The position numbers and the translations under genes were made by a program. From NCBI GenBank assembly GCA_029288725.1, contig JARIGS010000004.1, forward strand, positions 15,132 through 79,131: DNA of 64,000 nucleotides, read 5' to 3'. The stretch is from Candidatus Nomurabacteria bacterium (GTDB taxonomy: Bacteria > Patescibacteriota > Minisyncoccia > Phycocordibacterales > UBA9973). Below the pieces are notes generated by a model. It saw only the letters and a list, made by a program, of their open reading frames with translations. It did no database searches and was not told where the DNA came from. Positions 26,797-46,892 of the stretch are shown piece by piece (within the stretch, counting starts at the first letter, position 1; every line of letters starts with the position of its first letter).

Positions 26797-26802
26797 TCGA
26801 TT

Positions 26803-27045
26803 AGCAGCGATGAAGAGGCTATCACCTCGGAGCTCTGGGAAGAAAGCCCGCCTACGCATAATGCTACGGCGCGGGAACTAGACCCCAGCGGGCATGCCCG
26901 TTATAGCAGTAATGAAGAATCCGCCTTTGCAAATGCTACGGCGAGATGAGGAACTAAGGTGGTACCGCGACATGAAAATCGCCCTTAGATTATGATGAGT
27001 ATTTCATCGTGATCTCAGGGCGATTTTTTGTTACAACAGGCAATA
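26803..27045 (+). promoter_or_regulatory. T-box riboswitch leader (tRNA-Ile sensing) upstream of ileS.
   Basis: T-box consensus 'AACTAAGGTGGTACCGCGA' at 26952-26969. An intrinsic terminator 'AAAATCGCCCT...TCAGGGCGATTTTTT' (26976-27029) overlaps it, giving the antiterminator/terminator alternative. Candidate specifier 'GCTATCAC' (ATC, Ile codon) at 26821-26823. Start of ileS follows at 27064. Confidence 0.7.
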
Positions 27046-27063
27046 AAATTAATTTACAACTAT

Positions 27064-30000
27064 ATGGAAGAAGACACAAACCCAGCCGTCGCTAAAGCTA
27101 TGGCGAGCAAAGAAAAATCACAACGTGCACAGACCGAGGAGCGGATCCTCGCATTTTGGCAGCAGGAACATATTTTTGAAAAGACCTTGGAAAAGGATGC
27201 CCCAAAGGGGGAGTATATTTTTTATGAAGGACCACCGACTGCCAATGCCAAGCCGGCATTGCACCACCTGGAGTCTCGCGCATTCAAGGACGTTATTCCT
27301 CGATACAAGACCATGCAGGGGTATCGTGTGCCGCGTCGTGCCGGATGGGATACGCACGGTTTGCCAGTAGAATTGCAGATTGAAAAGAAATTGGGTCTTA
27401 CTTCCAAGAAAGAGATCGAGGCGTATGGTGTCGCACAGTTCAATAAGGAATGTAAGGATAGTGTTTTCACCTACATCAAGGACTGGGAAGACTTTACCGA
27501 CCGCATCGGTTACTGGGTTGATAAGAAAAGCGCGTACTATACGTTTGATACGAATTACATTGAATCAGTCTGGCATATCTTGTCGACCGTAAACAACAAG
27601 GGCCTTGTCTACAAAGACTTCAAGGTCCTGCCGTGGTGCCCACGTTGCGGTACAGCGCTCTCAAGTCATGAATTGGCACAGCCAGGCGCATATATGGACG
27701 TGAAGGATTTGTCAGTGACAGCAAAGTTTAAAGTTGTTGGACAGGATAATACCTACATCCTCGCTTGGACTACTACACCGTGGACATTGCCAGGGAATGT
27801 CGGTTTAGCTGTTGGGGCGGATATTGATTATGTTGCAGTAGAAAAAGATGGAGAAACGCTGATCCTTGCAAAGGAGCGTATGGAAGTGCTCGGCGGCGAC
27901 CTTACGGTGATAAAAGAAATGAAAGGCAAAGATCTTGTTGGCCTTTCCTATGAACCGCTTTATCCATATCTTGCGAATCTTATCGCTGGTGACGAAGCAA
28001 AGAAAATGGATGCAGCATATAAGGTCTATCCAGCAGATTTCGTTACTACCACTGATGGTACCGGTATCGTACACACAGCCGTAATGTATGGTGCTGATGA
28101 CTTTGATTTGGGAACGGCAGTTGGTTTGCCAAAGTTTCATACCGTTGATGATACAGGGCATTTCATTGCCGGTACTGATTTTCTTGGGGGGCGATTTGTG
28201 AAGGATGAGGAAGTGGCTGTCGATATCATTAAAGACCTTGCGCATCGGGGATTGCTGTTCAAGAAGGAAAAATATGAGCACTCTTATCCGCATTGCTGGC
28301 GTTGTAAGACTCCATTGCTCTACTATGCCCGTGATTCATGGTACATCGCGATGTCAAAAATGCGTGATGAGCTAGTAAAGGAAAACGAGACCATCAACTG
28401 GGAACCGGCTCACATCAAGCAGGGGCGCTTTGGCGAATGGCTGAAGGACCTTAAGGATTGGGCGATTTCTCGTGAACGATACTGGGGTACGCCATTGCCG
28501 ATTTGGCAGGCAGCCGATGGTGAGCGACTATTTGTTGATTCCGTTGCAACATTGAAGCAATACATCAAGAAGTCAGGCAATACGTACTTCATCATGCGCC
28601 ATGGCCAGACTGAGCACAACCTCAAAGGATTGTGGAATTTCGGTGACACCACTGATCCGTTGACTGATGCAGGAAGGGAGCAGGTAGTGGCAAGCGCCGC
28701 TATGTTGAAGGATAAAAAGATTGACCTGATCATCACTTCACCGTTTGCCCGTACGCTGGAAACGGCAACACTGGTAGCGGCACGAATTGGATTGACTGAG
28801 GAAAATATCATTACCGATAGTCGCATCGGTGAGTGGAATGTCGGCGCAGCATTTGATGGCAAACCAATGGATGAGTTCTTTGCTATTCGCAATGCTCAGG
28901 CTGATCGATATGGGTTCAAAACCGAAGATGGTGAATCCTATGCTGACCTTATCAAGCGGGCAGGGGATTTTCTCTACGATATTGAAAAAAAATATGAAGG
29001 CAAAACAATTCTGATTGTCTCTCATGGTGGCGTTGATCGTGCGATGGATCTGATCTCGCAGGGTCTTTCAATGAGAAATCTGTTTGAACAGAGTCGCGCG
29101 TATCAGAACTTTGCCAATGCCGAAGTGCGGCAGATTGATTTTGCTCCCATGCCGCACAATGAACAATATGAGCTTGATCTGCACCGCCCGTTTATTGATG
29201 ACGTTGTGCTGGTCAAACCGGCAACTGACATGTCAGGAGAGGCAAGGGAATTCAGACGCGTGAAGGAAGTGATGGATGTCTGGTTTGACTCAGGGTCAAT
29301 GCCATTTGCACAGGATCATTATCCCTTCGGGCTACGCCCTCAGGGTCTGACGACCCATACAACCCAAGAACTTGCGTATCCGGCGGACTTTATCTCAGAA
29401 GCGATTGATCAGACCCGTGGATGGTTCTACACCTTGCATGCTATTGGAACATTGATGGGTCGTGGCAAGGCGTATAAAAACGTTATTTGTCTTGGTCATA
29501 TCCTTGATGCCGAAGGCAAGAAAATGTCGAAGTCCATCGGTAACATCGTTGATCCGTGGCAGGAAATGGGCCGTTTCGGTGTCGATACGTTGCGTTTGTG
29601 GATGTACTCAGTTAATCAGCCGGGGGATTCAAAAAACTATGACCCAAAGACCGTGATGGAAATGGAGCGTCAGACATTTGGCCTGCTGTATAACGTCCTT
29701 TCATTTTATGAACTCTATCGTGATACAGAGTTAGAGGTTCAATCTCTCAGTGAATCAACCAACGTATTGGATCAGTGGATCATTGCTCGTCTCAATATTT
29801 TGATCATCATCTGTACTGATGGTTTAGATCATTACAAAACGATGGAACCAGTACGAGCGATTCGTGATTTCATTGGTGACCTTTCAACGTGGTATGTGCG
29901 TCGATCGCGTGAGCGATTGAAGGGAGAAGGTCGCGTTTTAATGGACGGTACGCGACACGATTCCGCAGAATCGGCTAAAGCGACTCTGTACCATATTCTT

Positions 30001-30615
30001 AAAACACTTGCTCAATTACTTGCGCCATTTGCGCCATTCGCGGCAGAGGATATATGGGGTCACTTAAAACATTCTTCTGATACAGTATCGGTCCACCTAT
30101 CATCATGGCCTACGGTTGTACCTACTTCTATAGATGGAGTAATACTATTGGAAAACATGATCACTGTCCGTAGCATCTGTACAATTGGTAACGCCCTTCG
30201 TAAGAAACTGGCAATTCCAGTTCGTCAGCCATTGCAGTCTATTACCGTGAAAGGTGAGGCATTGCCTCAAGAGTATGTGGCATTGATCATGGATGAATTG
30301 AATGTGAAGGAAGTAGTGTTTAATACCGACCTAGAAACTGAAGCCGAGCTTGATACTACTATCACACCCGCTCTCAAAGCCGAGGGTGACTATCGTGAAC
30401 TTGTGCGTGCAGTACAGGACTTGCGCAAGACAAAAGGCTTAACACCGAGTGATGAGATTACCATCACGCTTAGCCCTGCCGGAGAATCATTGCTCACACC
30501 GTTCATGGAGGATTTCAAAAAAACCGTCCTTGCAACCGAGGTGAATTTTGCAGAAAATGAGGGGGAAGCAATTACGATCGGAGATCGGACTATGGAAATA
30601 ATCCTTACGGCATAA
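27064..30615 (+). CDS. ileS: Isoleucyl-tRNA synthetase (type-2/T. thermophilus-like), unusually long at 1183 aa because of an inserted ~200-aa histidine-phosphatase (PGAM-like) domain. The HIGH motif is degenerate.
   Basis: 'FYEGPPTANAKPALHH' (HIGH position reads ALHH), CP1 editing region, 'WCPRCGT', 'RERYWGTPLPIW', 'DVWFDSGSMPF', 'KKMSKSIGN'. Start refined to ATG 27064. Confidence 0.9.
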   Translation: MEEDTNPAVAKAMASKEKSQRAQTEERILAFWQQEHIFEKTLEKDAPKGEYIFYEGPPTANAKPALHHLESRAFKDVIPRYKTMQGYRVPRRAGWDTHGLPVELQIEKKLGLTSKKEIEAYGVAQFNKECKDSVFTYIKDWEDFTDRIGYWVDKKSAYYTFDTNYIESVWHILSTVNNKGLVYKDFKVLPWCPRCGTALSSHELAQPGAYMDVKDLSVTAKFKVVGQDNTYILAWTTTPWTLPGNVGLAVGADIDYVAVEKDGETLILAKERMEVLGGDLTVIKEMKGKDLVGLSYEPLYPYLANLIAGDEAKKMDAAYKVYPADFVTTTDGTGIVHTAVMYGADDFDLGTAVGLPKFHTVDDTGHFIAGTDFLGGRFVKDEEVAVDIIKDLAHRGLLFKKEKYEHSYPHCWRCKTPLLYYARDSWYIAMSKMRDELVKENETINWEPAHIKQGRFGEWLKDLKDWAISRERYWGTPLPIWQAADGERLFVDSVATLKQYIKKSGNTYFIMRHGQTEHNLKGLWNFGDTTDPLTDAGREQVVASAAMLKDKKIDLIITSPFARTLETATLVAARIGLTEENIITDSRIGEWNVGAAFDGKPMDEFFAIRNAQADRYGFKTEDGESYADLIKRAGDFLYDIEKKYEGKTILIVSHGGVDRAMDLISQGLSMRNLFEQSRAYQNFANAEVRQIDFAPMPHNEQYELDLHRPFIDDVVLVKPATDMSGEAREFRRVKEVMDVWFDSGSMPFAQDHYPFGLRPQGLTTHTTQELAYPADFISEAIDQTRGWFYTLHAIGTLMGRGKAYKNVICLGHILDAEGKKMSKSIGNIVDPWQEMGRFGVDTLRLWMYSVNQPGDSKNYDPKTVMEMERQTFGLLYNVLSFYELYRDTELEVQSLSESTNVLDQWIIARLNILIIICTDGLDHYKTMEPVRAIRDFIGDLSTWYVRRSRERLKGEGRVLMDGTRHDSAESAKATLYHILKTLAQLLAPFAPFAAEDIWGHLKHSSDTVSVHLSSWPTVVPTSIDGVILLENMITVRSICTIGNALRKKLAIPVRQPLQSITVKGEALPQEYVALIMDELNVKEVVFNTDLETEAELDTTITPALKAEGDYRELVRAVQDLRKTKGLTPSDEITITLSPAGESLLTPFMEDFKKTVLATEVNFAENEGEAITIGDRTMEIILTA
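28561..29163 (+). other. Histidine-phosphatase superfamily (phosphoglycerate-mutase-like) domain inserted in-frame inside ileS.
   Basis: Branch-1 signature 'FIMRHGQTEHN' (RHGxT) and second catalytic-His motif 'ILIVSHGGVDRAM'. Flanked by the conserved IleS blocks 'WGTPLPIW' upstream and 'DLHRPFIDD...DVWFDSGS' downstream. Confidence 0.75.
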
Positions 30616-30723
30616 CGTAGTATACTAAGTGTCATGGCAATACAACAGCAATTGGACACTGCGGCACAGCGGCAACGAGACGCGATGGAAGCATTACTAC
30701 ATAAGGCTCACAAGAGTAATTCT

Positions 30724-31362
30724 ATGAATATACACAAGATTGGACACTGCTGTCTTATTATCGAAACGAAAGGCGTACGGATCATGACTGACCCCGGTTC
30801 TTTTACGACAGCGCAAAATGAGGAAAAAAATATCGATATCGTGATGATCACGCACGAGCATGCGGACCATTTCCATGTTGATTCATTGAAACAAGTGATG
30901 GCAAACAATCCTGAAGCAAAAGTTATTACTAATACGGCAGTAGGAAAGCTGCTGGATGCAGAAGGCATTGCATATGAAATCCTTGAAGAAGGCGGCACTA
31001 TGACCGTTCGTGATATCGTACTGGAAGGTTTTGGCGAAAAGCACGCAATCATCTACAAGGATATGGGACAGGTTCAGAATACCGGCTACTTCATCGATGA
31101 GACCTTGTTCTACCCGGGCGATGCATTTACTGCTCCCGGTAAACCGGTGAAAGTATTGGCATTACCAACGGTTGCACCATGGATGAAATTGTCCGAAGCG
31201 ATCGAATACGCATTGGCAGTAAAACCAACCTATGCCTTTCCGGTGCACGATGCAATTGCAACCATGCCCGGCATGTTTGCCCGTATGCTCACCCCATTAC
31301 TTGGGCCAGAAGGCATTGATTTCATTCCATTGGAGGCAGGACAGTCTCATACCTTCGAGTAA
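30724..31362 (+). CDS. MBL-fold metallo-hydrolase (UlaG/YtnP-like). The start is uncertain; an upstream ATG at 30634 is in frame.
   Basis: 'MITHEHADHFHVD' (HxHxDH) motif. Confidence 0.6.
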   Translation: MNIHKIGHCCLIIETKGVRIMTDPGSFTTAQNEEKNIDIVMITHEHADHFHVDSLKQVMANNPEAKVITNTAVGKLLDAEGIAYEILEEGGTMTVRDIVLEGFGEKHAIIYKDMGQVQNTGYFIDETLFYPGDAFTAPGKPVKVLALPTVAPWMKLSEAIEYALAVKPTYAFPVHDAIATMPGMFARMLTPLLGPEGIDFIPLEAGQSHTFE

Positions 31363-36815: not shown

Positions 36816-39800
36816 ATGCACCTCAGTTCCCAACGATTCAATCGGATTATTGCCATCCTCGCCATCCTCTCGACGGTGAGCGTTTTTGCGTATAGAGCCG
36901 CTGCGTCTTCGTTGCCGGGTGCCTTCCTCGGATCAAAAATTACGGTCGGTGACACCAACAACACCTATGCCATTGCCGACACCAACTACCTCGAAGGAGG
37001 ACACATGCAGGTGGCAACCCATGCGGCTTTGTTGGCCATCACTCGTGAGCGTCGCGAAGTCGGCATGCTTGTCACTGTCGTCGATGATGACACGGGAACA
37101 GTGGGAAATCAGACCGTAACCTATCGTCTGATCAGCAATCCAACTGCGGATGGTTCAGGAGGAACCGCAACACCAACAACCGATGCAAACTGGACAGTGA
37201 TCATTCCTTCACTTGGTGGAAACGGAGGTAAGTTCTTGACGACTGATGGTACGACCGTAAGCTGGGCAACGGTCAGTGGCGGAGGAGGCGGTGGTACCTA
37301 TACTGCTGGTACTGGTTTGACACTCACCGGCAGTGCGTTCTCCGTGAACACTTCACAGAATATTGCAACCCTCTCTAATCTCACCACTGACGGTTTTGTA
37401 AGAACTACTGGTGCGAATGGCACGCTTACTTCTGCACCACTTTCATCTGCAGAAGTTGCCAGTGCGCTTGGGTACACCCCGTACAATGCATCAACCAATT
37501 CTTCTGGGTACATTGCCGGCAATCTTACCGGTGCGATTACTTCCGTAGGCAATGCTACCTCACTTGGTTCATTTACCTCTGCAAATCTCAGCGGTGCACT
37601 CACTGATGAGACGGGAAGTGGGGCAGCAGTATTTGCCAACTCACCAACATTCGTGACGCCAACACTCGGTGCCGCAAATGCGACATCAGTCAATGGCTTG
37701 TCACTTACTGCAAATCCAACTGGTTTTGCCATTGCTGGTGGTAGTACTACTTCAAAGACTCTTACCATTTCAAATTCATTAACACTTGCTGGTACTGACG
37801 GCTCAACGCTCAACATCGGCACTGGTGGCACGCTTGGTTCTGCAGCCTTCACCAACGCTTCTGCGTATGAAGTGCCGCTAACGTTTAGCACTGGACTCAC
37901 CAGAACAGGTAATACCATTACGGTGAATGCATCACAAAATATTTCTACACTCTCAAACCTCACCTCAAACGGTTTGATTAAGACAACAGGAGGAACGGGG
38001 GCGCTTTCGATTGCGGCCGCTGATATTGATTACTCTACACCAACTGGTGTTGAGACAATTACCAATAAGGATTTTACCTCTGGTACCAACACTTTCCCAA
38101 CATTCAACCAGAATACGACCGGTAGTGCGGCAACATTAACCACAGCTCGATTGATTGCCGGCAACAGCTTCAACGGCTCAGCCAATGTGCCGTTTGCAAA
38201 CAAATTCATTGTTCAGGGTACGAGTGATGCTGGTCTGACCGGCGCCCAGTTCCTTGGTGCATTGGCAACAGGCTTATTAAAAAACACGACCACCACTGGC
38301 GTACTGTCAGTCGCTACTCCTGGTAGTGATTATGAAGTGCCGCTGACATTTTCAACAGGACTGACACGCACCGTTAACACCATCACTGTCAATACTTCAC
38401 AGAACATTTCCACACTCTCAAATCTCACCTCGAACGGTTTCGTCACCACGTCTGGTGGTACGGGCGCACTTTCTGTCACCGGATCAACGGGGTCTGGCAA
38501 TGTCGTGCTTGCAACATCTCCAACATTGGTAACACCGGTATTGGGTGCTGCTACCGCAACAAGTATCAATAAAGTTGCCTTTACCGCTCCCGCAACTGGT
38601 GCAACGTTGACTATTGCTGATGGCAAGACGCTTACTGCATCAAACTCCCTTACCTTTGCCGGTAGTGATGGATCGACATTGAATGTTGGTAGTGGAGGAA
38701 CATTGGGAACTGCGGCATATACCAGTTCATCAGCGTATGAAGTGCCGCTAACATTCAGTACTGGTCTTACTCGTACTGTTAACACCATCACTGTTAACAC
38801 TTCCCAGAACATCGCGACCCTTTCAAACCTCACTTCAAACGGTTCAGTCCAGACATCCGGAGGCAACGGTACGCTTTCCGTCGTTGCTAATACCGGTACC
38901 GGTAACAATGTCCTTGCGAATTCACCAAGTCTCACTAGTCCCTCTTTTTCAACAATTGTAAATACTGGTACACTGACACTCCCTACTTCTACCGATACGC
39001 TGGTTGGTCGTGCAACAACTGACACACTAACCAACAAAACTATAAGTGGATCAAACAATACACTGACCAATATTCCAAACAGTGCTCTTACCAACTCATC
39101 ATTAACGCTTGCTCTCGGCACGTCTGGTACTGACGTAAACTGGGGTGCATCAACGGTCTCATTGGGCGGTACTGCAACGCTCAACATTCCTGATGCCTCT
39201 GCCACCGCTCGAGGCCTTATCACTACTGGCGCGCAGACCATTGCCGGTGCAAAGACATTTTCAAGTTCAGCGACATTCTCAGCATATACGTCAGGTTCAG
39301 TGCCTTATATTTCAACTGGTGGATTGCTAGCGCAGGACAATGCGAATTTCTTCTATGACGGAATAAACCACCGATTGGGATTGGGCACCACCTCACCGTC
39401 TGCCTTCATCCATGTTCTAGGAACAACCGAGCAGCTTCGTCTCGGATATGATGCAAGCAACTATGGATCATTTACCACTGGCAACACTGGAGGGCTTACC
39501 GTTACCACCACCGGAACGAATGCAAATGTTAACCTCAGTCCTGCTACGGGCATTGTCACCGTGAACGGTACTATCCCCGAGCAGCGCTTCGTCACCTCGG
39601 GCGACAGCAACTACGCGCGCTTCCAGCGCTCAACCGCAAGCGACCAGTTCGTCGGCAAGAACAACGTCTTGCAGTCAGGGGGAGTAGGAAAGGCAATTAC
39701 CGTAACACTTGGTGCCAATCGATATCTTCAAGCTTCTGATGCAGGGTTGCCTACTGGTAGTTCCATTACGTTAAGTTTCAGTGAATGGTATAAATGGACT

Positions 39801-42800
39801 AGTGGCAGCGTAAACGTGCTCTTCTCATACGGTCCCGCTACAAGTAATAATCAGCTTACTTTTTACCTTACTAGTACGACCGGTGTCCTCGCTACGACTG
39901 GTGGAAGTCCGCTGGGTACTGTTTCAATGTCCGGTACTCCTAATGATGGTAACTGGCACCATATTGTAGTGGTGATTAACGGCAGTTCATTGACTGTATA
40001 TACTGATAATATCTCCCACACGGCCACGCTTACTGCTTACAACATCACTTTAAGTGGTACCTTCCAAAACTATCAACCAACAACTGCCTTGGCAGGAGCA
40101 CTAGACCAGGAGCTTGTATATAATAGAGTGCTCAGCCGCACCTCCGGTGCCGGTTCCTCCGACGAAATTGCGCAACTGTACAATGGAGGATCCGGTACTG
40201 CCTCAATCCCGACGACAGGCCTCATTCGCCGCTACGACTTCGAAGAGGGCACTGGCACGACAGCAAATGACACCAACCCAAATGGCACCCAGTATCCATT
40301 GACATTAATTAACGGTCCGACGTGGACCTTGAACGGCTTCGTGCCAGTCAGTGCAAGCAGCACCGAGTCCCCATTCTTCTCAGTCAGTGACGGCCTCACC
40401 AACGCCGAGCGCGGCATCGCGACCTGGGGCGACTTCAACGGCCGCAACCAGCAGCAGGGTAAGTGGTTCCAGTGGTTCCAGAACGGCGTGTACCCACTGG
40501 CAAGCAACAACAGCGGACAGTGGCTGTTCAATCCGAATAATAGTTCAAATACGGCACCAACAATTGCTTCCACCATCGACGTGGCCGGTAACCTTACGAT
40601 TGGCGCGACATATGCGGGAGTGAACGCCGCGCCGACCAACGGCCTGCTGGTGCAGGGCAACGTGGGTATTGGTACGACTACTGCAAACGGTACTCTTTCA
40701 CTGGGGGGCAACCAGACTGCTGCTGCCTGGGGTACTACTGGTATCAACTTCAGCACGGCAGCTGCAACCTACACTAACTCCTCAACCGCAGCAAATGGAA
40801 CAGTGGCCAATAGCGCCGTCAACTCTTTCGGTGTTCCAACTCTTGCTGCTTCCAACACGGGTGTTACTAGCACTACTGCATCAACTTTGTATATAGCAGG
40901 GGCACCGGTAGCGGGAACAAACATGACCATTACCAATCCATTGGCCCTCTATGTTGCAACAGGCAACGCCTCATTTGGTGGTAATGTTGGCATTGGTACA
41001 ACTAGTCCGACGGCAAGACTTCAGCTTGGTGCTGGTACTGCTACTGCGGGTACTGCGCCACTGAAGTTCGCCAGTGGAACTAATCTTGCTACACCAGAAG
41101 CCGGTGCGATGGAATTTGACGGTACGCAGCTATATTTCTCACCGTCAACTACTCGAAACATTGTCGCACAGGTTTCAGGAGGCACCCCACTAACGGCAGG
41201 ATCAATTCCGTTTGCAACCGCAAGTGGTTATTTCACACAAAACAATAATAATTTCTACATTCAAAACAGCTCATCTACTCCAATGACCCTTGCTACCAAC
41301 ACCAACGTTGCGTTTAGTGTGAACACGAACGGTGACTTTACGGGTACCGATGCTGTTAATATCTATGGTCAGTATGATGCGTATCTGCCTAACAGCGCCA
41401 TCACCAATTCATTGACTGGTTTGAACACTGATGGAGCGTTTCCAGGATACGGGGTTTCTTCATCCCGCGGCACAGGACAGTCACCAGTACAGCTCCAGAC
41501 CGGTGACCTAGTTGGTGGTTTCTTTGGCTTTGGTGCCCAAGGTGCGTCGTCACCAACGTATCAAAACCTTGGTGGTATGGCTGTGACGACCATAGGAAGT
41601 TCGACCAATAACCTTGGTGGACAGTTGAATTTCTATACTAAGGCTGACGGCGGATCATTAACTCAGCACTTGAGCATTGATAATGCTGGTGTGCTCTCGG
41701 TATCAAGTACCACCCCCGAGCAGCGCTTCGTCACCTCGGGCGACAGCAACTACGCGCGCTTCCAGCGCTCAACCGCAAGCGACCAGTTCGTCGGCAAGAA
41801 CAACGTATTGCAGTCAGGGGGAAGTGGTCAGGCAATAGTCTTCAACTCCGCTTCTAGTCAGTATTTTACTGCCCCTGATACTGGCCTGCCAACAGGATCA
41901 AGTATTGCCTTAACGGTATCGCAGTGGATCAAGTATAACGGGGGCGTACCGGCCAACCTTCCGTTGCTGTATTATGGAACGGGCTCAACCAGTCTGACTG
42001 CCTTTATAGTAACTAACAGTGGACAAGTCGCTGTGTATAATGGTAATACAGCACTAAGTTCTGCCTTTGGCGTGCGTATTGATGATGGTAAGTGGCACCA
42101 TGTTGTCCTTACAATAAACGGCAGTGCATTGACTGTCTACATAGACAATGTGTCATATACTGGTACGTTGCCTGCCTATACCGTAGCGACAGGAGCGTCA
42201 ATGGTAAACAATAATGTTGCGAACTCGACGTTTTATTTCTCCTATTCACTTGATCAATTATTGGTGTACAACAGAGTGCTCAGCCGCACCTCCGGTGCCG
42301 GTTCCTCCGACGAAATTAGCCAATTGTATAATTCTGGTGCGGGTACCGCTTCCATTTCTACTACCAACCTGCTTCGCCGTTACGACTTCGAGGAGGGCAC
42401 TGGCAGTACTGTAAGCGACACCAATCCGAATGGTACGCAATACCAAATGACACTGGTAAATAGCCCATCTTGGACATTGAACGGCATCGTGCCTATTGGC
42501 GCTAGTAGTACAGAGACATCATTCTTCGCTATCAAAGACGGCCTCACCAACGCCGAGCGCGGCATCGCGACCTGGGGCGACTTCAACGGCCGCAACCAGC
42601 AGCAGGGTAAGTGGTTCCAGTGGTTCCAGAACGGTTCATACCCACTGGCAAGCAACAACAGCGGACAGTGGCTGTTCAATCCAAGCAACAATACTAACGG
42701 CGTTCCGACTATTGCCTCAACTATCGACGTTGCCGGCAACATAACCGTTGGTGCGATATATGCGGGAGTGAACGCCGCGCCGACCAACGGCCTGCTGGTG

Positions 42801-44336
42801 CAGGGCAACGTGGGTATTGGCACTGCTGCTACGACCGTCGCATCCAAACTCCATATTCTTACTACTGCACTTGGAACTACGCAGGCAAACTCTTCTGGTA
42901 TTTACCTGCAAAACAATACTGCGGCAGCTGCAGGTGCGCAACAAATTTCTCCGGGTATCGTGTTTGAAGGTCAGGGATGGAAAACAAATGCAACGGCTGC
43001 ATCACAGGCAGTAGACTTCCGCGAATTCGTTGTACCGGTGCAGGGAACTGCGAATCCTACCGGCTATCTCTCATGGGGTTCTTCAGTCAACGGTGCCGGA
43101 TATACTGACGGATTGCTCGCATTAACGACTGGTGGAAACCTCGGTATCGGCACTACTGCTCCATCAGGCGCACTTTCAGTCGGAGGCAACCGTACCGCTT
43201 CCGCCTGGGGCGTGAACGGTATTAACCTACAAACTGTTGCGGCAACGTACACTGACTCATCGACTGCTGCCAACGGTACCGTTACTAATACCGCCATCAA
43301 CTCATTCGGCATCCCAACGGTGGCGGCGACAAACAGTAGTGTTACCTACACCAACTACTCCAATCTCTACATTGCCGGTGCGCCATTAGCCGGAACAAAT
43401 GTAAGCCTTACTAACCGTTTTGCATTGAACGTCGCCGGTGGCAGCTCATTCTTTGGCGGTAGTGTCGGCATCAGTACTGCGGGTACGCCATTCACCCCAA
43501 GCTTTACGCTGCAGGTTGGGGATGGCGCGGTTAGTGGCATCGTTGCTCGTTTCCAAAACAGCGCCGGTACTTGTGACATTAACCCGCTTACCAGCTCATT
43601 GGCTTGTTCTTCTGATATGAACCTGAAGAAAAATATTACTAACTTGTCCGATGGTAGCGCATGGAGCTTCAGCAACAATATTTCTGTTGCCAATGATAGT
43701 GATCTTGATAAGATCCTTGCCCTTAATCCGGTGACTTACAACTGGAATGTTGAACAGGACACCGACCAAAAGCATATCGGTTTCATTGCTCAGGATGTGC
43801 AGCAGATCTTCCCTGATTTGGTCGCAACTGATCCAAACACCCACTTGCTGTCATTGAACTACATCGGCTTCATTCCATATACCATTGAGGCAATCAAGGA
43901 AATAAACTTCAACATCACCGCCATCGACGATCTTACCAAGAGCAATACCTGGAGAGACGCATTGATTGGATGGTTTGCTGATAGCGCCAACGGCATCAAG
44001 TCATTGGTTGTTCATGACAAGGTCTGTGTCGATGACCAATGTTTGACCAAGAGTGACATTCAGCGATTGTTGCAGCTTGAAAACCAGCAGGGAGGTACGA
44101 CTACGGTATCAAACTCATCATCAAATACGACAAGTAGTACTACCACCGACAGTAGTACTGATACTACGTCACAAACCCAAAGTCCTGATGTGACTGCACC
44201 AGCACCAGATACCACTACTACCAGTACCGCTTCTCCTGCGCCAGACACGACTACTTCAACGGATACTTCTAGTTCCAGTACCACTGACACGAGCAGCACT
44301 CCGCCCCCAGCTGATACTACTAGTGCGAGCCAATAA
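36816..44336 (+). CDS. Giant (2506 aa) secreted multi-repeat protein: signal peptide, about 4 N-terminal ~140-aa repeats, two ~715-aa modules each carrying a LamG/ConA-like lectin domain, a phage tail-fibre-type intramolecular chaperone (Peptidase S74) domain, and a Ser/Thr-rich tail.
   Basis: Signal 'IIAILAILSTVSVFAYRAAAS'. Repeats 'YEVPLTFSTGLTRT.NTITVN.SQNI.TLSNLTSNG' occur three times with this motif (~nt 37866, 38332, 38740), with a fourth divergent copy at ~nt 37328 lacking the YEVPLTFS start. LamG motif 'LVYNRVLSRTSGAGSSDEI.QLYN' occurs twice. S74 chaperone motif 'LNPVTYNWNVEQDTDQKHIGFIAQDVQQIFPDLV'. Confidence 0.8.
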   Translation: MHLSSQRFNRIIAILAILSTVSVFAYRAAASSLPGAFLGSKITVGDTNNTYAIADTNYLEGGHMQVATHAALLAITRERREVGMLVTVVDDDTGTVGNQTVTYRLISNPTADGSGGTATPTTDANWTVIIPSLGGNGGKFLTTDGTTVSWATVSGGGGGGTYTAGTGLTLTGSAFSVNTSQNIATLSNLTTDGFVRTTGANGTLTSAPLSSAEVASALGYTPYNASTNSSGYIAGNLTGAITSVGNATSLGSFTSANLSGALTDETGSGAAVFANSPTFVTPTLGAANATSVNGLSLTANPTGFAIAGGSTTSKTLTISNSLTLAGTDGSTLNIGTGGTLGSAAFTNASAYEVPLTFSTGLTRTGNTITVNASQNISTLSNLTSNGLIKTTGGTGALSIAAADIDYSTPTGVETITNKDFTSGTNTFPTFNQNTTGSAATLTTARLIAGNSFNGSANVPFANKFIVQGTSDAGLTGAQFLGALATGLLKNTTTTGVLSVATPGSDYEVPLTFSTGLTRTVNTITVNTSQNISTLSNLTSNGFVTTSGGTGALSVTGSTGSGNVVLATSPTLVTPVLGAATATSINKVAFTAPATGATLTIADGKTLTASNSLTFAGSDGSTLNVGSGGTLGTAAYTSSSAYEVPLTFSTGLTRTVNTITVNTSQNIATLSNLTSNGSVQTSGGNGTLSVVANTGTGNNVLANSPSLTSPSFSTIVNTGTLTLPTSTDTLVGRATTDTLTNKTISGSNNTLTNIPNSALTNSSLTLALGTSGTDVNWGASTVSLGGTATLNIPDASATARGLITTGAQTIAGAKTFSSSATFSAYTSGSVPYISTGGLLAQDNANFFYDGINHRLGLGTTSPSAFIHVLGTTEQLRLGYDASNYGSFTTGNTGGLTVTTTGTNANVNLSPATGIVTVNGTIPEQRFVTSGDSNYARFQRSTASDQFVGKNNVLQSGGVGKAITVTLGANRYLQASDAGLPTGSSITLSFSEWYKWTSGSVNVLFSYGPATSNNQLTFYLTSTTGVLATTGGSPLGTVSMSGTPNDGNWHHIVVVINGSSLTVYTDNISHTATLTAYNITLSGTFQNYQPTTALAGALDQELVYNRVLSRTSGAGSSDEIAQLYNGGSGTASIPTTGLIRRYDFEEGTGTTANDTNPNGTQYPLTLINGPTWTLNGFVPVSASSTESPFFSVSDGLTNAERGIATWGDFNGRNQQQGKWFQWFQNGVYPLASNNSGQWLFNPNNSSNTAPTIASTIDVAGNLTIGATYAGVNAAPTNGLLVQGNVGIGTTTANGTLSLGGNQTAAAWGTTGINFSTAAATYTNSSTAANGTVANSAVNSFGVPTLAASNTGVTSTTASTLYIAGAPVAGTNMTITNPLALYVATGNASFGGNVGIGTTSPTARLQLGAGTATAGTAPLKFASGTNLATPEAGAMEFDGTQLYFSPSTTRNIVAQVSGGTPLTAGSIPFATASGYFTQNNNNFYIQNSSSTPMTLATNTNVAFSVNTNGDFTGTDAVNIYGQYDAYLPNSAITNSLTGLNTDGAFPGYGVSSSRGTGQSPVQLQTGDLVGGFFGFGAQGASSPTYQNLGGMAVTTIGSSTNNLGGQLNFYTKADGGSLTQHLSIDNAGVLSVSSTTPEQRFVTSGDSNYARFQRSTASDQFVGKNNVLQSGGSGQAIVFNSASSQYFTAPDTGLPTGSSIALTVSQWIKYNGGVPANLPLLYYGTGSTSLTAFIVTNSGQVAVYNGNTALSSAFGVRIDDGKWHHVVLTINGSALTVYIDNVSYTGTLPAYTVATGASMVNNNVANSTFYFSYSLDQLLVYNRVLSRTSGAGSSDEISQLYNSGAGTASISTTNLLRRYDFEEGTGSTVSDTNPNGTQYQMTLVNSPSWTLNGIVPIGASSTETSFFAIKDGLTNAERGIATWGDFNGRNQQQGKWFQWFQNGSYPLASNNSGQWLFNPSNNTNGVPTIASTIDVAGNITVGAIYAGVNAAPTNGLLVQGNVGIGTAATTVASKLHILTTALGTTQANSSGIYLQNNTAAAAGAQQISPGIVFEGQGWKTNATAASQAVDFREFVVPVQGTANPTGYLSWGSSVNGAGYTDGLLALTTGGNLGIGTTAPSGALSVGGNRTASAWGVNGINLQTVAATYTDSSTAANGTVTNTAINSFGIPTVAATNSSVTYTNYSNLYIAGAPLAGTNVSLTNRFALNVAGGSSFFGGSVGISTAGTPFTPSFTLQVGDGAVSGIVARFQNSAGTCDINPLTSSLACSSDMNLKKNITNLSDGSAWSFSNNISVANDSDLDKILALNPVTYNWNVEQDTDQKHIGFIAQDVQQIFPDLVATDPNTHLLSLNYIGFIPYTIEAIKEINFNITAIDDLTKSNTWRDALIGWFADSANGIKSLVVHDKVCVDDQCLTKSDIQRLLQLENQQGGTTTVSNSSSNTTSSTTTDSSTDTTSQTQSPDVTAPAPDTTTTSTASPAPDTTTSTDTSSSSTTDTSSTPPPADTTSASQ
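39575..43860 (+). repeat. Tandem duplication of a ~2.15-kb coding module inside the giant gene (unit 1 ~39575-41712, unit 2 ~41713-43860), with several 42-108-nt islands that are 100% identical.
   Basis: Identical stretches: 39575-39667 and 41714-41806; 40125-40169 and 42273-42317; 40389-40485 and 42537-42633; 40492-40533 and 42640-42681; 40611-40672 and 42759-42820. Sequence between the islands is diverged. Confidence 0.85.
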
Positions 44337-45428: not shown

Positions 45429-46892
45429 ATGGAAAAAACGTTTTACATTACTACCACGCTGCCATACGTGAATGCACCATTACATATGGGGCATGCTTTG
45501 GAATTTGTACGAGCAGACGCTATTGCTCGGTATAAAACCCTTCAAGGGTACGATGTATTCTTTAATACTGGAACCGATGAGCATGGTCAAAAAATCTATA
45601 CCAAAGCCGTAGAAAAAGGCGAAGACCCGCAGGTTTTTGTTGATAAAAATTTTGTTACGTTTAAGGAACAGGTAGGGGCATTTGGAATGCTTGAAAATCT
45701 GCACTATGTGCGCACGACTGATGAAGCACACATAAAGGCGGCGCAAGTATTTTGGACCAAGGTCTATGACAATGGTTATATTTATAAAAAGACATATCAG
45801 GCAAAATATTGTATCGGATGTGAGGCGGAGAAAACAGATTCCGAACTCGATGAAAACGGGCACTGCCTACTCCATCCTGGATTGGAGCTTGAAATAATCA
45901 ATGAGGAAAATTACTTCTTTAAGTTCTCTGAGTTTGGAGAAAAACTTTTGACATTCTATGAATCTAAGCCCCACTTTGTTTTGCCAGATTTCCGTTTTAA
46001 TGAAGTAAAGTCATTTGTAAAAAACGGTCTACAGGATTTTTCTATTTCGAGAATGAAGGAAAAAATGGCATGGGGGATACCCGTACCGGGAGACGACTCA
46101 CAAGTGATGTATGTCTGGTTTGATGCATTGGTGAATTATATCTCCACATTGGGCTATCCATTGCTTGAAGATAATTTTGAAAAGTATTGGGTACGAGGTA
46201 CTCCGCTTCAATATTGCGGAAAAGACAATACCCGTTTCCAGGCAATTATGTGGCAGGCAATGCTTATCGCCGCCGATCTGCCAAATTCAGATCAAATCGT
46301 TGTAAATGGATTTATCACTGGCGACAAGGGGATTCGCATGTCGAAAACATTAGGAAACGTAGTTGACCCCTTAGACATCGTACGGGAATATGGTACTGAT
46401 GTGTTGCGCTTTTTCCTTCTGAAGGAAATCTCGAGCTTTGAAGACAGCCCTTTTACCATTGAGCGTTTCAGAGAGTCATATCAGGCAAACTTGGCTAATG
46501 GCTTGGGCAACCTGGTCTCCCGCATCATGAAGATGGTGACGAATTATGAAGTGAACTATTTGTTGCCAACTGATGAAGATCTGCTTGAATTTGATGATGC
46601 AGTACCAGAGGATTTTCACACCAAGATTGATCAGTATGATCTCAAAGCAGCGATGGATGATATCTGGCGCGAAGTGAATTCGCTTGATTGGCTAATTCAG
46701 AACAAGGAACCGTTCAAATTGGCAAAGACCGATATGCCTGAAGCCCAGAGAATAGTAGGGGATTTGGCAATTCGTCTCTACATCATTGGATTCCTCTTGC
46801 AGCCATTTATGCCACAGACTGCTGAAACTATTATGAAGTTAGTGAAGGAGAAAAAGACTCCGGAGAAGCCTTTGTTTAATAGATTGGCATAA
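45429..46892 (+). CDS. metG: Methionyl-tRNA synthetase, short 487-aa form without the C-terminal tRNA-binding domain.
   Basis: 'TTTLPYVNAPLHMGHALE' (HIGH as HMGH), Cys knuckles 'CIGCE...GHCLLH', 'RMSKTLGN' (KMSKS). Confidence 0.9.
   Translation: MEKTFYITTTLPYVNAPLHMGHALEFVRADAIARYKTLQGYDVFFNTGTDEHGQKIYTKAVEKGEDPQVFVDKNFVTFKEQVGAFGMLENLHYVRTTDEAHIKAAQVFWTKVYDNGYIYKKTYQAKYCIGCEAEKTDSELDENGHCLLHPGLELEIINEENYFFKFSEFGEKLLTFYESKPHFVLPDFRFNEVKSFVKNGLQDFSISRMKEKMAWGIPVPGDDSQVMYVWFDALVNYISTLGYPLLEDNFEKYWVRGTPLQYCGKDNTRFQAIMWQAMLIAADLPNSDQIVVNGFITGDKGIRMSKTLGNVVDPLDIVREYGTDVLRFFLLKEISSFEDSPFTIERFRESYQANLANGLGNLVSRIMKMVTNYEVNYLLPTDEDLLEFDDAVPEDFHTKIDQYDLKAAMDDIWREVNSLDWLIQNKEPFKLAKTDMPEAQRIVGDLAIRLYIIGFLLQPFMPQTAETIMKLVKEKKTPEKPLFNRLA

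What the first reader, a model, noticed from the sequence alone, without database searches (positions are those of the whole stretch)
27064..30615. ileS carries an in-frame histidine-phosphatase (PGAM-like) domain insertion and a degenerate HIGH motif
About 200 aa (nt 28561-29163) are inserted between the conserved IleS blocks 'RERYWGTPLPIW' and 'DLHRPFIDD...DVWFDSGS'. The insert has both catalytic signatures of branch-1 histidine phosphatases: 'FIMRHGQTEHN' (RHGxT) and 'ILIVSHGGVD'. The resulting protein is 1183 aa. At the class-I HIGH position the sequence reads 'PPTANAKPALHH', where T. thermophilus-type IleS has 'PPTANGLPHVGH', so the first His and the Gly are replaced. KMSKS ('KKMSKS') and the CP1 editing region look intact. 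I am not aware of an aaRS described with an embedded phosphoglycerate-mutase-fold domain. It could act on a phosphorylated nucleotide such as Ap4A or pppGpp, on a 2'/3'-phosphate, or on a phospho-intermediate linked to the altered ATP site, or it could be a regulatory moiety. This is the only ileS in the window and it sits behind a T-box, so it is presumably the essential housekeeping copy.
Basis: partly seen in the sequence, partly recalled or inferred. Interest (0 to 1): 0.85.

Follow-up and report, generated by a model that had tools for sequence, protein, structure and literature searches.

The report
Isoleucyl-tRNA synthetase with embedded histidine phosphatase
The only isoleucyl-tRNA synthetase gene in this window, from a tiny-genome (CPR) bacterium, has swallowed a complete, apparently active phosphatase that in related bacteria is a separate gene directly in front of it, a partnership between two enzymes that the papers searched do not describe.

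Summary
ORF 27064-30615 encodes a 1183-aa type-2 IleRS with a Pfam His_Phos_1 domain (E=1e-31) inserted in frame at aa 497-700, in the loop after WGTPLPIW. It is not an assembly artefact. At least 567 species-level Patescibacteria genomes encode a relative of the insert. In all 80 loci fetched it lies in frame within ileS. The catalytic Arg-His, Arg, Glu and His are invariant.

New evidence: the same phosphatase family also occurs as a ~190-aa stand-alone gene. Often it lies immediately upstream of, and sometimes overlapping (ATGA), an insert-less ileS in similar synteny. So the insert is an internalised IleRS partner, not a random passenger. Related domains sit at three sites in IleRS and three in ValRS, sometimes in tandem.

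The "degenerate HIGH" reading is wrong. ALHH is the published swapped A/GXHH motif of active, mupirocin-hyper-resistant IleRS2. The T-box is real, with an AUC specifier in an ultrashort stem I, though it scores below Rfam's threshold.

The phosphatase substrate is unknown. My leading, weakly supported guess is a phosphorylated tRNA acceptor end. No paper I found describes this architecture.

The parts
26801..26989 (+). T-box leader, tRNA-Ile sensing, with an ultrashort stem I
   Evidence: RF00230 full-length match, 47.3 bits, E about 2e-9, below the gathering score of 93 because 76 consensus positions of stem I are replaced by 6 nt. Similar leaders lie upstream of fused ileS in L005 (52.9 bits) and L011 (49.7 bits).
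26815..26828 (+). Stem I hairpin GAGG-CUAUCA-CCUC. The Ile specifier AUC is at 26821-26823, followed by A.
   Evidence: Read from the sequence. The hairpin is also predicted by the fold. The flanking AGCGAUGAA...GGAGC matches the T-box consensus.
26958..26969 (+). Conserved T-box sequence GGUGGUACCGCG (antiterminator bulge)
   Evidence: Aligned to the Rfam consensus with high posterior probability. Sequence read.
26970..27031 (+). Terminator hairpin that competes with the antiterminator and ends in a U-tract
   Evidence: Minimum free energy -34.3 kcal/mol, z = -9.2, 0 of 200 shuffles fold as well. The simple terminator scan missed it.
27064..30615 (+). ileS CDS, 1183 aa, type-2 IleRS with an embedded phosphatase
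   Evidence: Identical to public protein P0001. Closest solved structures are P. megaterium IleRS2 8c8w (776 bits) and T. thermophilus 1ile.
27232..27267 (+). Signature-motif region PPTANAKPALHH. ALHH (27256-27267) is the swapped non-canonical HIGH motif.
   Evidence: PMC10485003.
27691..28293 (+). CP1 editing domain (aa ~210-410), containing TTTPWT and GTGIVH..YGADD
   Evidence: Matches isolated IleRS editing-domain structures 1wk8 and 1wny over query aa 210-410. The motifs are invariant in the family alignment.
28483..28506 (+). WGTPLPIW strand (aa 474-481) just before the insertion site
   Evidence: W474-P477, P479 and W481 are invariant in 120 of 120 (L478 119, I480 variable).
28552..29163 (+). 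Inserted branch-1 histidine phosphatase domain (aa 497-700)
   Evidence: PF00300, E=1.3e-31. pLDDT about 90-95 in the full-length model and pTM 0.84 when folded alone. Foldseek probability 1.0, TM about 0.7, to GpgP, PspA, PhoE and CobC.
28597..28605 (+). RHG (R512, H513 the nucleophile, G514)
   Evidence: R and H are 120 of 120, G is 118 of 120. R and H are invariant in the 16-sequence alignment of deeply diverged IleS inserts, and H is kept in every gap-free domain instance of every context class.
29023..29028 (+). Second catalytic His, H654-G655 (SHGG)
   Evidence: 120 of 120. R563 and E590, at 28750-28752 and 28831-28833, are also 120 of 120.
29275..29298 (+). DVWFDSGS motif after the insert
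29521..29535 (+). KMSKS loop (aa 820-824)
   Evidence: Invariant in the family alignment.
29770..30240 (+). Anticodon-binding helical domain (aa 903-1059)
   Evidence: PF08264, E=1e-27.
30346..30606 (+). Type-2 IleRS C-terminal domain (DUF5915)
   Evidence: PF19302, E=2e-16.

Best explanation
This is most likely the housekeeping, T-box-controlled, type-2 isoleucyl-tRNA synthetase of a Nomurabacteria-like Paceibacteria (CPR) bacterium. Its ALHH motif is the known active, mupirocin-hyper-resistant swapped form of HIGH.

Inside the second half of its catalytic domain sits a complete ~200-aa PhoE/CobC/GpgP-like histidine phosphatase. The site is the loop that in T. thermophilus lies between the CxxC and CxC of a small Cys-rich segment. 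The phosphatase folds on its own and keeps every catalytic residue, so one polypeptide has aminoacylation, editing and phosphatase sites.

The phosphatase is a long-standing partner of IleRS. In sister lineages it is a separate, strongly basic protein encoded directly upstream of an insert-less ileS, in some loci with overlapping stop and start codons. In this lineage it has been moved inside the synthetase. Related copies have entered several loops flanking the KMSKS region of IleRS and ValRS (one ValRS copy lies earlier, upstream of the WGxP strand).

Shown: the architecture, its conservation, the operon-to-insertion relation and the T-box.

Inferred: the domain is an active phosphomonoesterase that works on a phosphorylated ligand of the aminoacylation cycle while that ligand is held by the synthetase. 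My leading candidate is a 2'/3'-phosphate or pyrophosphate on the terminal adenosine of tRNA-Ile, whose removal would make the tRNA chargeable. A nucleotide by-product is the next candidate.

Rough confidences: architecture and housekeeping role 0.95; genuine IleRS partner 0.8; catalytically active 0.75; tRNA-end substrate 0.2. The overall figure of 0.55 refers to the statement up to and including functional coupling with IleRS, not to the specific substrate.
For: Domain identity and fold.

Catalytic residues: R512, H513, N519, R563, E590 and H654 are 120 of 120 in the close family. The R-H, R and H are also invariant, and the general-acid Glu is kept in 15 of 16, among 16 IleS inserts at 32-42% identity. 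Both copies of tandem inserts and nearly all ValRS inserts keep them.

Spread and reality: 120 of 120 top clusters are fused. At least 567 GTDB species genomes encode a relative, and 80 of 80 fetched loci are in frame. 92 of the 150 best 50%-identity representatives have IleS flanks, and none is a terminal fusion.

Partner relation: in L081, L082, L084/L085, L086 and L088 a stand-alone homologue sits 0-5 nt upstream of ileS, in L083 2 nt upstream of an ileS that is itself split into two ORFs, and the ATGA overlap is present in L084 and L086. The gene order (argS, phosphatase, ileS, recO, a large protein, a class II aaRS in L081/L084) resembles the window's, where three other genes lie between argS and ileS. 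In a metagenome sample, 67 loci had room downstream. In 35 of them ileS starts within about 55 nt. Ten are in-frame inserts whose flanks are 57-63% identical to the insert-less type. Two have two tandem phosphatase genes followed by ileS.

Insertion sites: three sites in IleRS and three in ValRS, most of them flanking the KMSKS region.

Junction residues N506, Y508, P697, H698 and N699 are nearly invariant, which suggests a fixed orientation.

Stand-alone forms have a mean net charge of +9, inserted forms -7 and the IleRS body -27. This fits a stand-alone protein that docks on IleRS or on tRNA.

IleRS integrity: TIGR00392 scores above its cutoff, and KMSKS and the CP1 motifs are intact. The ALHH enzyme is active in Deinococcus. 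T-box with an AUC specifier.

Precedent for phosphorylated acceptor ends: toxSAS enzymes pyrophosphorylate the 3'-CCA of specific tRNAs (PMC11559606).
Against: Nothing was measured, and the substrate is not predictable from sequence. The nearest structures are all small-molecule phosphatases at about 24% identity. No NCBIfam equivalog cutoff is reached.

To my knowledge no histidine-phosphatase-superfamily enzyme is known to act on RNA ends. The inserted domain is acidic, so it is not an RNA binder by itself. If tRNA ends needed repair, it is unclear why only IleRS, and in another lineage ValRS, would carry the domain. ArgRS and MetRS in this window are ordinary.

The geometry of the phosphatase pocket relative to the aminoacylation site could not be examined.

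18 of 67 stand-alone loci are not next to ileS. ValRS occurs with and without the domain among close relatives, so the domain can be dispensable. The 80 metagenome loci were chosen by similarity to an alignment that included known ileS-adjacent members, so the adjacency fraction is biased upward.
Confidence: 0.55

Rival explanations
1. Passenger fusion. The phosphatase is a general metabolic or salvage phosphatase, for example for sugar phosphates, phosphoserine or nucleotides. It merely shares an operon with aaRS genes and was captured into permissive surface loops. It works independently of IleRS, and the gain is co-expression only.
For: All structural and sequence neighbours are small-molecule phosphatases. 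18 of 67 stand-alone loci are in other contexts, for example after an NTP-transferase gene. ValRS occurs with and without the insert among close relatives (about 84% identical in the best local alignment). The inserted domain is acidic. Nucleotide-metabolism genes (thyA, ndk, a LOG-like gene) lie nearby in the window.
Against: Co-expression alone would be met most simply by an end-to-end fusion of the upstream gene. Yet none of the 92 IleS-flanked representatives is a terminal fusion. Instead the domain is found inside the catalytic domain at six or more different sites in two paralogous synthetases. The junction residues are nearly invariant. In the 16 deeply diverged IleS inserts the R, H, R and H are never lost and the general-acid Glu is kept in 15 of 16. 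Stop and start codons overlap in L084 and L086.
Confidence: 0.3
2. Self-protecting protein phosphatase. The domain removes an inhibitory phosphate that a HipA/HipT-like or other kinase places on the synthetase near the KMSKS/ATP site.
For: Most of the insertion sites flank the KMSKS region. From my own knowledge: HipA phosphorylates GltX and HipT phosphorylates TrpS near their ATP-binding motifs, and the superfamily includes protein phosphatases (PGAM5, Sts-1, SixA). The sixA model hits the insert only weakly, at 32.5 bits.
Against: No kinase was found in the window or in the conserved neighbourhood. There is no PADLOC match. The closest relatives are not the protein-phosphatase subfamilies. 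No phosphorylation of IleRS or ValRS by toxins is known to me.
Confidence: 0.08
3. Regulatory sensor. The phosphate-binding pocket binds a phosphorylated metabolite, such as 3-PGA, 2,3-BPG or a nucleotide, and tunes IleRS activity. Catalysis is incidental.
For: The residues conserved for catalysis are also the phosphate-binding residues. The junction looks rigid. The host organisms are fermentative with little regulation (general knowledge of CPR).
Against: The general-acid Glu/Asp is needed for turnover rather than binding, and it is kept in nearly every copy examined. Tandem copies and the stand-alone forms are hard to explain as allosteric modules.
Confidence: 0.08
4. By-product hydrolase. 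The domain hydrolyses PPi, AMP or another nucleotide phosphate released at the aminoacylation site, and so pulls the reaction forward.
For: The insert lies within the catalytic domain of the synthetase. It shares an operon with two synthetase genes, argS and ileS.
Against: Branch-1 histidine phosphatases are not known to me as pyrophosphatases. Every aaRS would profit, not only IleRS and ValRS. Whether these genomes lack ppa could not be checked.
Confidence: 0.08
5. Artefact or dead gene. The locus is a chimeric assembly at the junctions, or an inactive IleRS paralogue crippled by the HIGH change and the insertion.
For: None beyond the unusual appearance.
Against: The same in-frame architecture appears in 80 of 80 independent genome loci, and at least 567 species genomes encode a relative of the insert. 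GC content is identical across the junctions. ALHH is proven active in Deinococcus. KMSKS, CP1 and the anticodon domain are intact. An Ile T-box lies upstream. This is the only ileS in 64 kb.
Confidence: 0.02

Closest known systems
Type-2 IleRS with the non-canonical A/GXHH signature motif (e.g. Deinococcus radiodurans IleRS2; Brkic et al. 2023, PMC10485003)
   Same: Same enzyme type: best PDB matches are P. megaterium IleRS2 and T. thermophilus IleRS, and the type-2 C-terminal DUF5915 domain is present. The motif is exactly the same, ALHH. KMSKS and CP1 are intact.
   Different: About 200 extra residues form a histidine phosphatase after WGTPLPIW. The four Cys that flank this loop in T. thermophilus are absent. 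Mupirocin resistance was not measured here.
Short branch-1 histidine phosphatases: PhoE/YhfR (1h2e), GpgP Rv2419c (4qih), PspA (4ij5), CobC (6nru), riboflavin-pathway HFP (9mmh)
   Same: Same fold, with Foldseek probability 1.0 and TM about 0.7. Same RHG...R...E...H catalytic set and about the same size, ~190 aa.
   Different: Only about 24% identical. No NCBIfam equivalog cutoff is reached: CobC scores 83-88 bits against a cutoff of 162.9. Here the domain is embedded in, or encoded next to, an aaRS. The substrate is unknown.
Bifunctional RNase H / acid phosphatase (Rv2228c type, NCBIfam NF005567)
   Same: A nucleic-acid enzyme joined to a CobC-like histidine phosphatase. This model is the best NCBIfam hit of the stand-alone partner and the second best of the insert.
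   Different: It is an end-to-end fusion, not an insertion into a catalytic domain. The scores are far below the cutoff (75-90 bits against 326). The partner enzyme is different.
CP1 editing domain of class Ia synthetases, and IleRS with an added GNAT domain (NCBIfam NF040702, ileS_w_GNAT)
   Same: Both are precedents for a second catalytic module carried by IleRS. CP1 is a hydrolase inserted into the Rossmann fold that acts on the tRNA 3' end.
   Different: CP1 is universal and unrelated in fold. The ileS_w_GNAT model scores 320 bits against a cutoff of 1999, so this protein is not that family. A histidine phosphatase has not been described in this role.
Actinobacterial ileS T-box leaders with an ultrashort stem I (Sherwood, Grundy and Henkin 2015; recalled from memory)
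   Same: Stem I is reduced to a short hairpin with the Ile specifier in its terminal loop, and the T-box sequence is conserved.
   Different: Here the expression platform is a strong intrinsic terminator, not sequestration of a ribosome-binding site. The host is a CPR bacterium.

Membership tests
Isoleucyl-tRNA synthetase (TIGR00392), type 2 | Whole-protein HMM score above the curated cutoff | tested here: met
   856.2 bits against a cutoff of 621.4. Best PDB relatives are IleRS2 8c8w and T. thermophilus 1ile.
Isoleucyl-tRNA synthetase (TIGR00392), type 2 | Class I signature motifs (HIGH or its A/GXHH variant, and KMSKS) | tested here: met
   ALHH at aa 65-68 and KMSKS at aa 820-824, both conserved in the family. 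ALHH is a documented active variant.
Isoleucyl-tRNA synthetase (TIGR00392), type 2 | CP1 editing domain with the Thr-rich TTPWT motif and the GTG.VH...G.DD motif | tested here: met
   aa 210-410 match the isolated editing-domain structures. TTTPWTLPGN and GTG.VH are invariant.
Isoleucyl-tRNA synthetase (TIGR00392), type 2 | Type-2 C-terminal organisation (anticodon domains plus DUF5915, no zinc-binding domain of type 1) | tested here: met
   PF08264 and PF19302 are both present.
Isoleucyl-tRNA synthetase (TIGR00392), type 2 | Aminoacylation of tRNA-Ile; mupirocin hyper-resistance | not testable with these tools
   Needs biochemistry. Inferred from the Deinococcus ALHH enzyme.
Histidine phosphatase superfamily, branch 1 (PF00300) | Pfam score above the gathering threshold | tested here: met
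   110.2 bits against 21.7, E=1.3e-31.
Histidine phosphatase superfamily, branch 1 (PF00300) | Catalytic RHG His, two Arg, the general-acid Glu and the second His | tested here: met
   R512, H513, R563, E590 and H654 are invariant in 120 of 120. The R, H, R and H are also invariant, and the Glu is kept in 15 of 16, in the deeply diverged IleS inserts; nearly all copies in every context keep them.
Histidine phosphatase superfamily, branch 1 (PF00300) | Alpha/beta phosphoglycerate-mutase-like fold | tested here: met
   The insert-only model has pLDDT 85 and pTM 0.84. Foldseek probability 1.0 to many family structures.
Histidine phosphatase superfamily, branch 1 (PF00300) | Phosphatase or mutase activity | not testable with these tools
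   Needs an enzyme assay.
Cofactor-dependent phosphoglycerate mutase (dPGM), CobC, or PspA as specific enzymes | Score above the NCBIfam equivalog cutoff | tested here: not met
   CobC 83-88 bits against 162.9. Archaeal dPGM 59-63 against 225. PspA 52-57 against 350. pgm_1 28 against 81.7. So the insert is not assignable to any characterised specificity.
T-box leader (RF00230) | Rfam gathering score | tested here: not met
   47.3 bits against 93. The shortfall comes from the missing distal stem I.
T-box leader (RF00230) | Specifier codon for the regulated amino acid, the conserved T-box sequence, and alternative terminator and antiterminator | tested here: met
   AUC followed by A in the stem I loop, GGUGGUACCGCG, and a -34.3 kcal/mol terminator that overlaps the 3' side of the antiterminator.
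Intein or other self-splicing or mobile in-frame element | Hint or homing-endonuclease domains | tested here: not met
   Pfam finds only the aaRS domains and His_Phos_1 in the protein. GC content is uniform.
Known anti-phage defence proteins (PADLOC) | Match to any PADLOC model | tested here: not met
   No hits for the insert, the stand-alone form or the tandem form.

The most novel reading that the evidence does not exclude
The embedded or adjacent histidine phosphatase is a new kind of synthetase-borne tRNA conditioning site. While IleRS (or ValRS) holds its tRNA, the domain removes a 2'/3'-phosphate or pyrophosphate from the terminal adenosine, for example one left by tRNA-end-modifying toxins such as toxSAS or by nucleases. 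That would make it a third active site acting on the acceptor end, alongside synthesis and editing, and a built-in countermeasure in CPR bacteria.
Probability: 0.15. Interest if true: 0.9.

Novelty: new variant of a known kind. Interest (0 to 1): 0.72.

Why it matters
Aminoacyl-tRNA synthetases are among the best-studied enzymes. New catalytic modules inside their cores are rare and have usually pointed to new biology, as editing domains and eukaryotic signalling appendages did.

Here a catalytically intact phosphatase is tied to IleRS in three ways: a conserved operon, start-stop overlap in some loci, and repeated in-frame insertion into the catalytic domains of IleRS and ValRS. This holds across a large part of the Paceibacteria, in at least 567 species-level genomes. 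That predicts an unrecognised phosphate-removal step linked to tRNA-Ile or tRNA-Val charging in organisms with minimal genomes.

It is directly testable, because both a fused and a two-protein form exist. It also gives a natural series (stand-alone, tandem, and inserted at different loops) for studying how domains get inserted into an essential enzyme.

On the practical side, the ALHH motif predicts that these bacteria are intrinsically hyper-resistant to mupirocin. The leader adds a terminator-type T-box with an ultrashort stem I outside the Actinobacteria.

Tried and rejected
1. Assembly chimera: rejected.

2. Degenerate HIGH or inactive enzyme: rejected. ALHH is a published active variant.

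3. Assignment to a characterised phosphatase (CobC, dPGM, PspA, SixA, GpmB): all below the curated cutoffs. The fold search gave only generic family neighbours.

4. Defence-system membership: no PADLOC hit.

5. Intein or mobile element: no such domains, and composition is uniform.

6. Literature: five searches found no description of an aaRS with a histidine phosphatase. The two IleRS2 papers do not mention it.

7. Geometry of the phosphatase pocket relative to the aminoacylation site: not obtainable. The full-length AlphaFold model has pTM 0.59 with a low-confidence Rossmann core, coordinates are not exposed to scripts, and the afdb50 library was unavailable.

8. A genome scan with the deep 16-sequence insert alignment failed for lack of conserved stretches. 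It was repeated with a closer alignment.

9. The simple terminator scan missed the T-box terminator. Direct folding found it.

10. I looked for a stand-alone phosphatase next to insert-less valS in one Magasanikbacteria locus (L089). None was there.

11. My neighbour-joining tree of domain copies is too crude to count insertion events. I use only the mapped insertion sites.

12. Names for the divergent or double-insert proteins: the cluster look-up gave almost none.

Full report
**1. The observation**

The ORF starting at ATG 27064 and ending at 30615 on the + strand encodes 1183 aa. All the quoted strings are present.
- Pfam finds the class I synthetase catalytic domain in two pieces, a His_Phos_1 domain at aa 509-663 (E=1.3e-31), the anticodon-binding domain and the type-2 C-terminal DUF5915.
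- NCBIfam's ileS equivalog scores 856 bits against a cutoff of 621.
- The closest solved structures are P. megaterium IleRS2 and T. thermophilus IleRS. In them, query residues 485-699 correspond to only about 20 residues.
- When I delete aa 506-694 in silico, the flanks align colinearly with T. thermophilus IleRS 446-619. The insertion point falls in the loop 'ARATKPLPEP', between the CxxC and CxC of a small Cys-rich segment whose four Cys are missing here.
- An HMM of the insert bounds it at aa 497-700, nt 28552-29163.

**2. Not an artefact, and not unique**

- All 120 best homologue clusters (60-100% identity) carry both Pfam domains. They are named Nomurabacteria, Paceibacterota or Minisyncoccia.
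- In all 80 loci fetched, the insert is in the same frame as the IleS N part. In 77 the C part is too, and the other 3 are cut by a contig end.
- GC content and GC3 do not change across the junctions.
- The closest genome locus is a Nomurabacteria MAG with 75-79% identity, so the window comes from a Paceibacteria (CPR) bacterium.

**3. The phosphatase looks active**

In the 120-member alignment, R512, H513, N519, R563, E590, E624, R632, H654 and G655 are invariant.

Among 16 IleS inserts that are only 32-42% identical, the RHG Arg-His, the second Arg, the GES Glu, R632 and the second His are still invariant. The general acid is Glu in 15 of 16.

The domain is predicted with pLDDT about 90-95 inside the full-length model, and with pTM 0.84 when folded alone. 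Its best structural matches are the short small-molecule phosphatases GpgP, PspA, TIGAR, Rv3214, PhoE and CobC, at TM about 0.7 and about 24% identity. No NCBIfam equivalog cutoff is reached. So the superfamily is certain and the substrate is not.

The insert is 57% identical on average across the family, against 76% for the N part and 64% for the C part. That is ordinary purifying selection. The junction residues N506, Y508, P697, H698 and N699 are nearly invariant, which suggests a fixed rather than floppy attachment.

**4. The HIGH motif**

ALHH is conserved in 116 of 119 members, and 3 have GIHH. Brkic et al. 2023 (PMC10485003) describe this as the non-canonical G/AXHH motif of IleRS2, in which positions 1 and 3 are swapped. 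The wild-type Deinococcus radiodurans enzyme has exactly ALHH, is fully active (kcat 45.5 s-1) and has a mupirocin Ki of 6.6 mM. The motif is therefore not degenerate.

It is also independent of the insert. Insert-less relatives have GIHH or GVHH, and the ValRS proteins printed with the same insert (P0271, P0282, P0297) keep a canonical H-x-G-H.

**5. The T-box**

Rfam's gathering threshold is not met. There is, however, a full-length T-box match of 47.3 bits with E about 2e-9 at 26801-26989.
- Stem I is reduced to GAGG-CUAUCA-CCUC, with the Ile codon AUC followed by A in the loop.
- The GGUGGUACCGCG sequence is present.
- A -34.3 kcal/mol hairpin (z = -9.2) ending in a U-tract overlaps the 3' side of the antiterminator.
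- Similar leaders precede fused ileS in L005 and L011.

This gene is the only ileS in the window. Together with the intact motifs, this supports a housekeeping role.

**6. The key new evidence: an operon partner**

A search of 1.84 billion representatives with the insert gave 1427 hits at E<=1e-10. Of the best 150, 92 have IleS flanks and none is a terminal fusion. The rest are fragments, ~190-205-aa stand-alone proteins and ~420-aa tandem double phosphatases.

The stand-alone family has 479 clusters at E<=1e-10, named Parcubacteria, Paceibacterota or Pacebacteria. In L081, L082, L083 (where ileS is itself split), L084/L085, L086 and L088 it is encoded 0-5 nt upstream of an insert-less ileS. 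In L084 and L086 the stop and start codons overlap (ATGA). The gene order in L081/L084 (argS, phosphatase, ileS, recO, a large protein, a class II aaRS) resembles the window's, where three other genes separate argS from ileS. One Pacebacteria locus is elsewhere.

In a metagenome sample of the family, 67 loci had room downstream of the phosphatase gene:

| Context | Loci |
|---|---|
| ileS starts within about 55 nt downstream | 35 |
| In-frame insert at the window's site, flanks 57-63% identical to the insert-less L084 type | 10 |
| Two tandem phosphatase genes followed by ileS | 2 |
| ileS 0.8-1.5 kb downstream | 2 |
| No ileS nearby | 18 |

The sample is biased towards members that resemble ileS-adjacent proteins, but the association is clear.

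Stand-alone proteins are basic (mean net charge +9). Inserted domains are acidic (-7), like the IleRS body (-27).

**7. A wider pattern**

The same domain family also occurs in these arrangements:
- twice in some IleRS proteins of 1379-1489 aa;
- once in many ValRS proteins of a Magasanikbacteria-like group, whose close relatives lack it;
- four times in one truncated ValRS.

I mapped each copy onto insert-less references.

| Enzyme | Site A | Site B | Site C |
|---|---|---|---|
| IleRS | After WGTPLPIW (the window's site) | Just after DVWFDSGS | About 70 aa after KMSKS |
| ValRS | After WFGHQIPVWY | After DTWFSSG..GWP | About 40 aa upstream of the WGxP motif |

The catalytic residues are kept in all IleRS and tandem copies and in nearly all ValRS copies. 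ArgRS and MetRS in the window are ordinary.

**8. Interpretation**

Shown:
- a bifunctional polypeptide;
- long-term retention of the phosphatase catalytic set;
- a conserved operon-to-insertion relation with IleRS;
- repeated internal placement in two paralogous class Ia synthetases.

Inferred: the phosphatase acts together with the synthetase. Simple co-expression would be met by an end-to-end fusion of the upstream gene, and that is never seen among 92 representatives.

What it dephosphorylates is unknown. I favour, at about 0.2, a phosphate or pyrophosphate on the terminal adenosine of the bound tRNA. Such lesions exist and can be tRNA-specific (toxSAS, PMC11559606). CP1 sets a precedent for an inserted hydrolase that acts on the acceptor end.

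Against this reading:
- no member of the superfamily is known to me to act on RNA ends;
- the inserted domain is acidic;
- only one or two synthetases carry it;
- the nearest structures are metabolite phosphatases;
- ValRS can do without it.

The passenger model (about 0.3) is the main rival. The protein-phosphatase, sensor and by-product-hydrolase models cannot be excluded.

**9. Novelty**

Five literature searches found no description of an aaRS with a histidine phosphatase domain or partner. Two recent IleRS2 evolution and structure papers do not mention it. Sequence databases hold hundreds of examples, labelled only as 'isoleucyl-tRNA synthetase' or 'class I tRNA ligase family protein', and once as 'valyl-tRNA synthetase/broad specificity phosphatase PhoE'.

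I rate it a new variant of a known kind, namely a multi-domain synthetase. Interest is high because it is widespread, unexplained and easy to test.

Noticed in passing
window 26801-27031: The ileS T-box has an ultrashort stem I, a 4-bp hairpin with AUC in a 6-nt loop, like the actinobacterial ileS leaders. Unlike them it is coupled to a strong intrinsic terminator. It therefore falls below Rfam's gathering score and would be missed by standard annotation.
   Followed up: partly
proteins P0271, P0279-P0283, P0292, P0295-P0301, P0326, P0327 and others; not in the window: ValRS of a Magasanikbacteria-like CPR group carries the same phosphatase domain at two different loops. Close relatives, about 84% identical in the best local alignment, lack it. 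One insert-less valS locus (L089) has no phosphatase gene nearby.
   Followed up: partly
proteins P0188/P0272-P0276, P0190/P0277/P0278, P0207, P0266, P0179, P0128: Some IleRS proteins have two phosphatase domains, either in tandem at one site or at two sites including one after KMSKS. One truncated ValRS has four. All copies keep the catalytic residues. One of these proteins lies on a 1.06-Mb contig, and its taxon is unknown.
   Followed up: partly
L110 1777-2944 and L152 4001-5164: Two tandem stand-alone phosphatase genes lie directly upstream of ileS. This mirrors the tandem inserted forms and the ~420-aa double-phosphatase proteins such as P0203.
   Followed up: partly
stand-alone family P0181 and P0398-P0516 compared with inserts of P0001-P0120: Stand-alone phosphatases are strongly basic (mean net charge +9). 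The inserted domains are acidic (-7), like the IleRS body (-27). This may reflect docking of the free protein on IleRS or on tRNA.
   Followed up: no
L081 6581-9481 and L088 4593-7499: The insert-less IleRS next to the stand-alone phosphatase in these loci is a divergent subtype. It has GVHH, EMHKS in place of KMSKS and NPWLDAG in place of DVWFDSG, yet keeps the type-2 C-terminus.
   Followed up: no
window 28507-28551 and 29164-29274: The four cysteines that flank the insertion loop in T. thermophilus IleRS (CxxC and CxC) are absent in the window protein. They are retained in the insert-less relatives L081, L084 and L088.
   Followed up: no
L083 6596-9030 and L086 4591-7418: In these loci ileS is called as two consecutive ORFs (351+410 aa and 757+189 aa). 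This may be a split gene, a frameshift or a sequencing error.
   Followed up: no
window 36816-44336: A giant 2506-aa ORF has Laminin_G/ConA-like lectin domains and a Peptidase_S74 domain (the intramolecular chaperone of endosialidase and tail-fibre proteins). It is probably a large surface or adhesion protein.
   Followed up: no
window 1-64000: No Rfam family reaches its gathering score anywhere in 64 kb: no tRNA, rRNA or other riboswitch. The region is dense in translation and nucleotide genes: thyA, a DUF1599 gene, argS, ndk, an RNase J-like beta-CASP gene, a LOG-like gene, ileS, recO, a class II aaRS and metG at 45429-46892.
   Followed up: no
window 30634-31362: An MBL-fold hydrolase (Lactamase_B_3) lies between ileS and recO. 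It is absent from that position in the split-type loci L081, L084 and L088.
   Followed up: no
L028, and many loci L008-L074: One fused-ileS contig is deposited as 'Nitrospira sp.' and is probably mis-binned. Dozens are deposited as 'uncultured Candidatus Saccharibacteria', although their IleRS groups with Paceibacteria. The record names are unreliable for taxonomy.
   Followed up: no
L083 2650-3561: A reverse-transcriptase (RVT_1) gene lies between smpB/tmRNA and argS, just upstream of the phosphatase-ileS pair.
   Followed up: no
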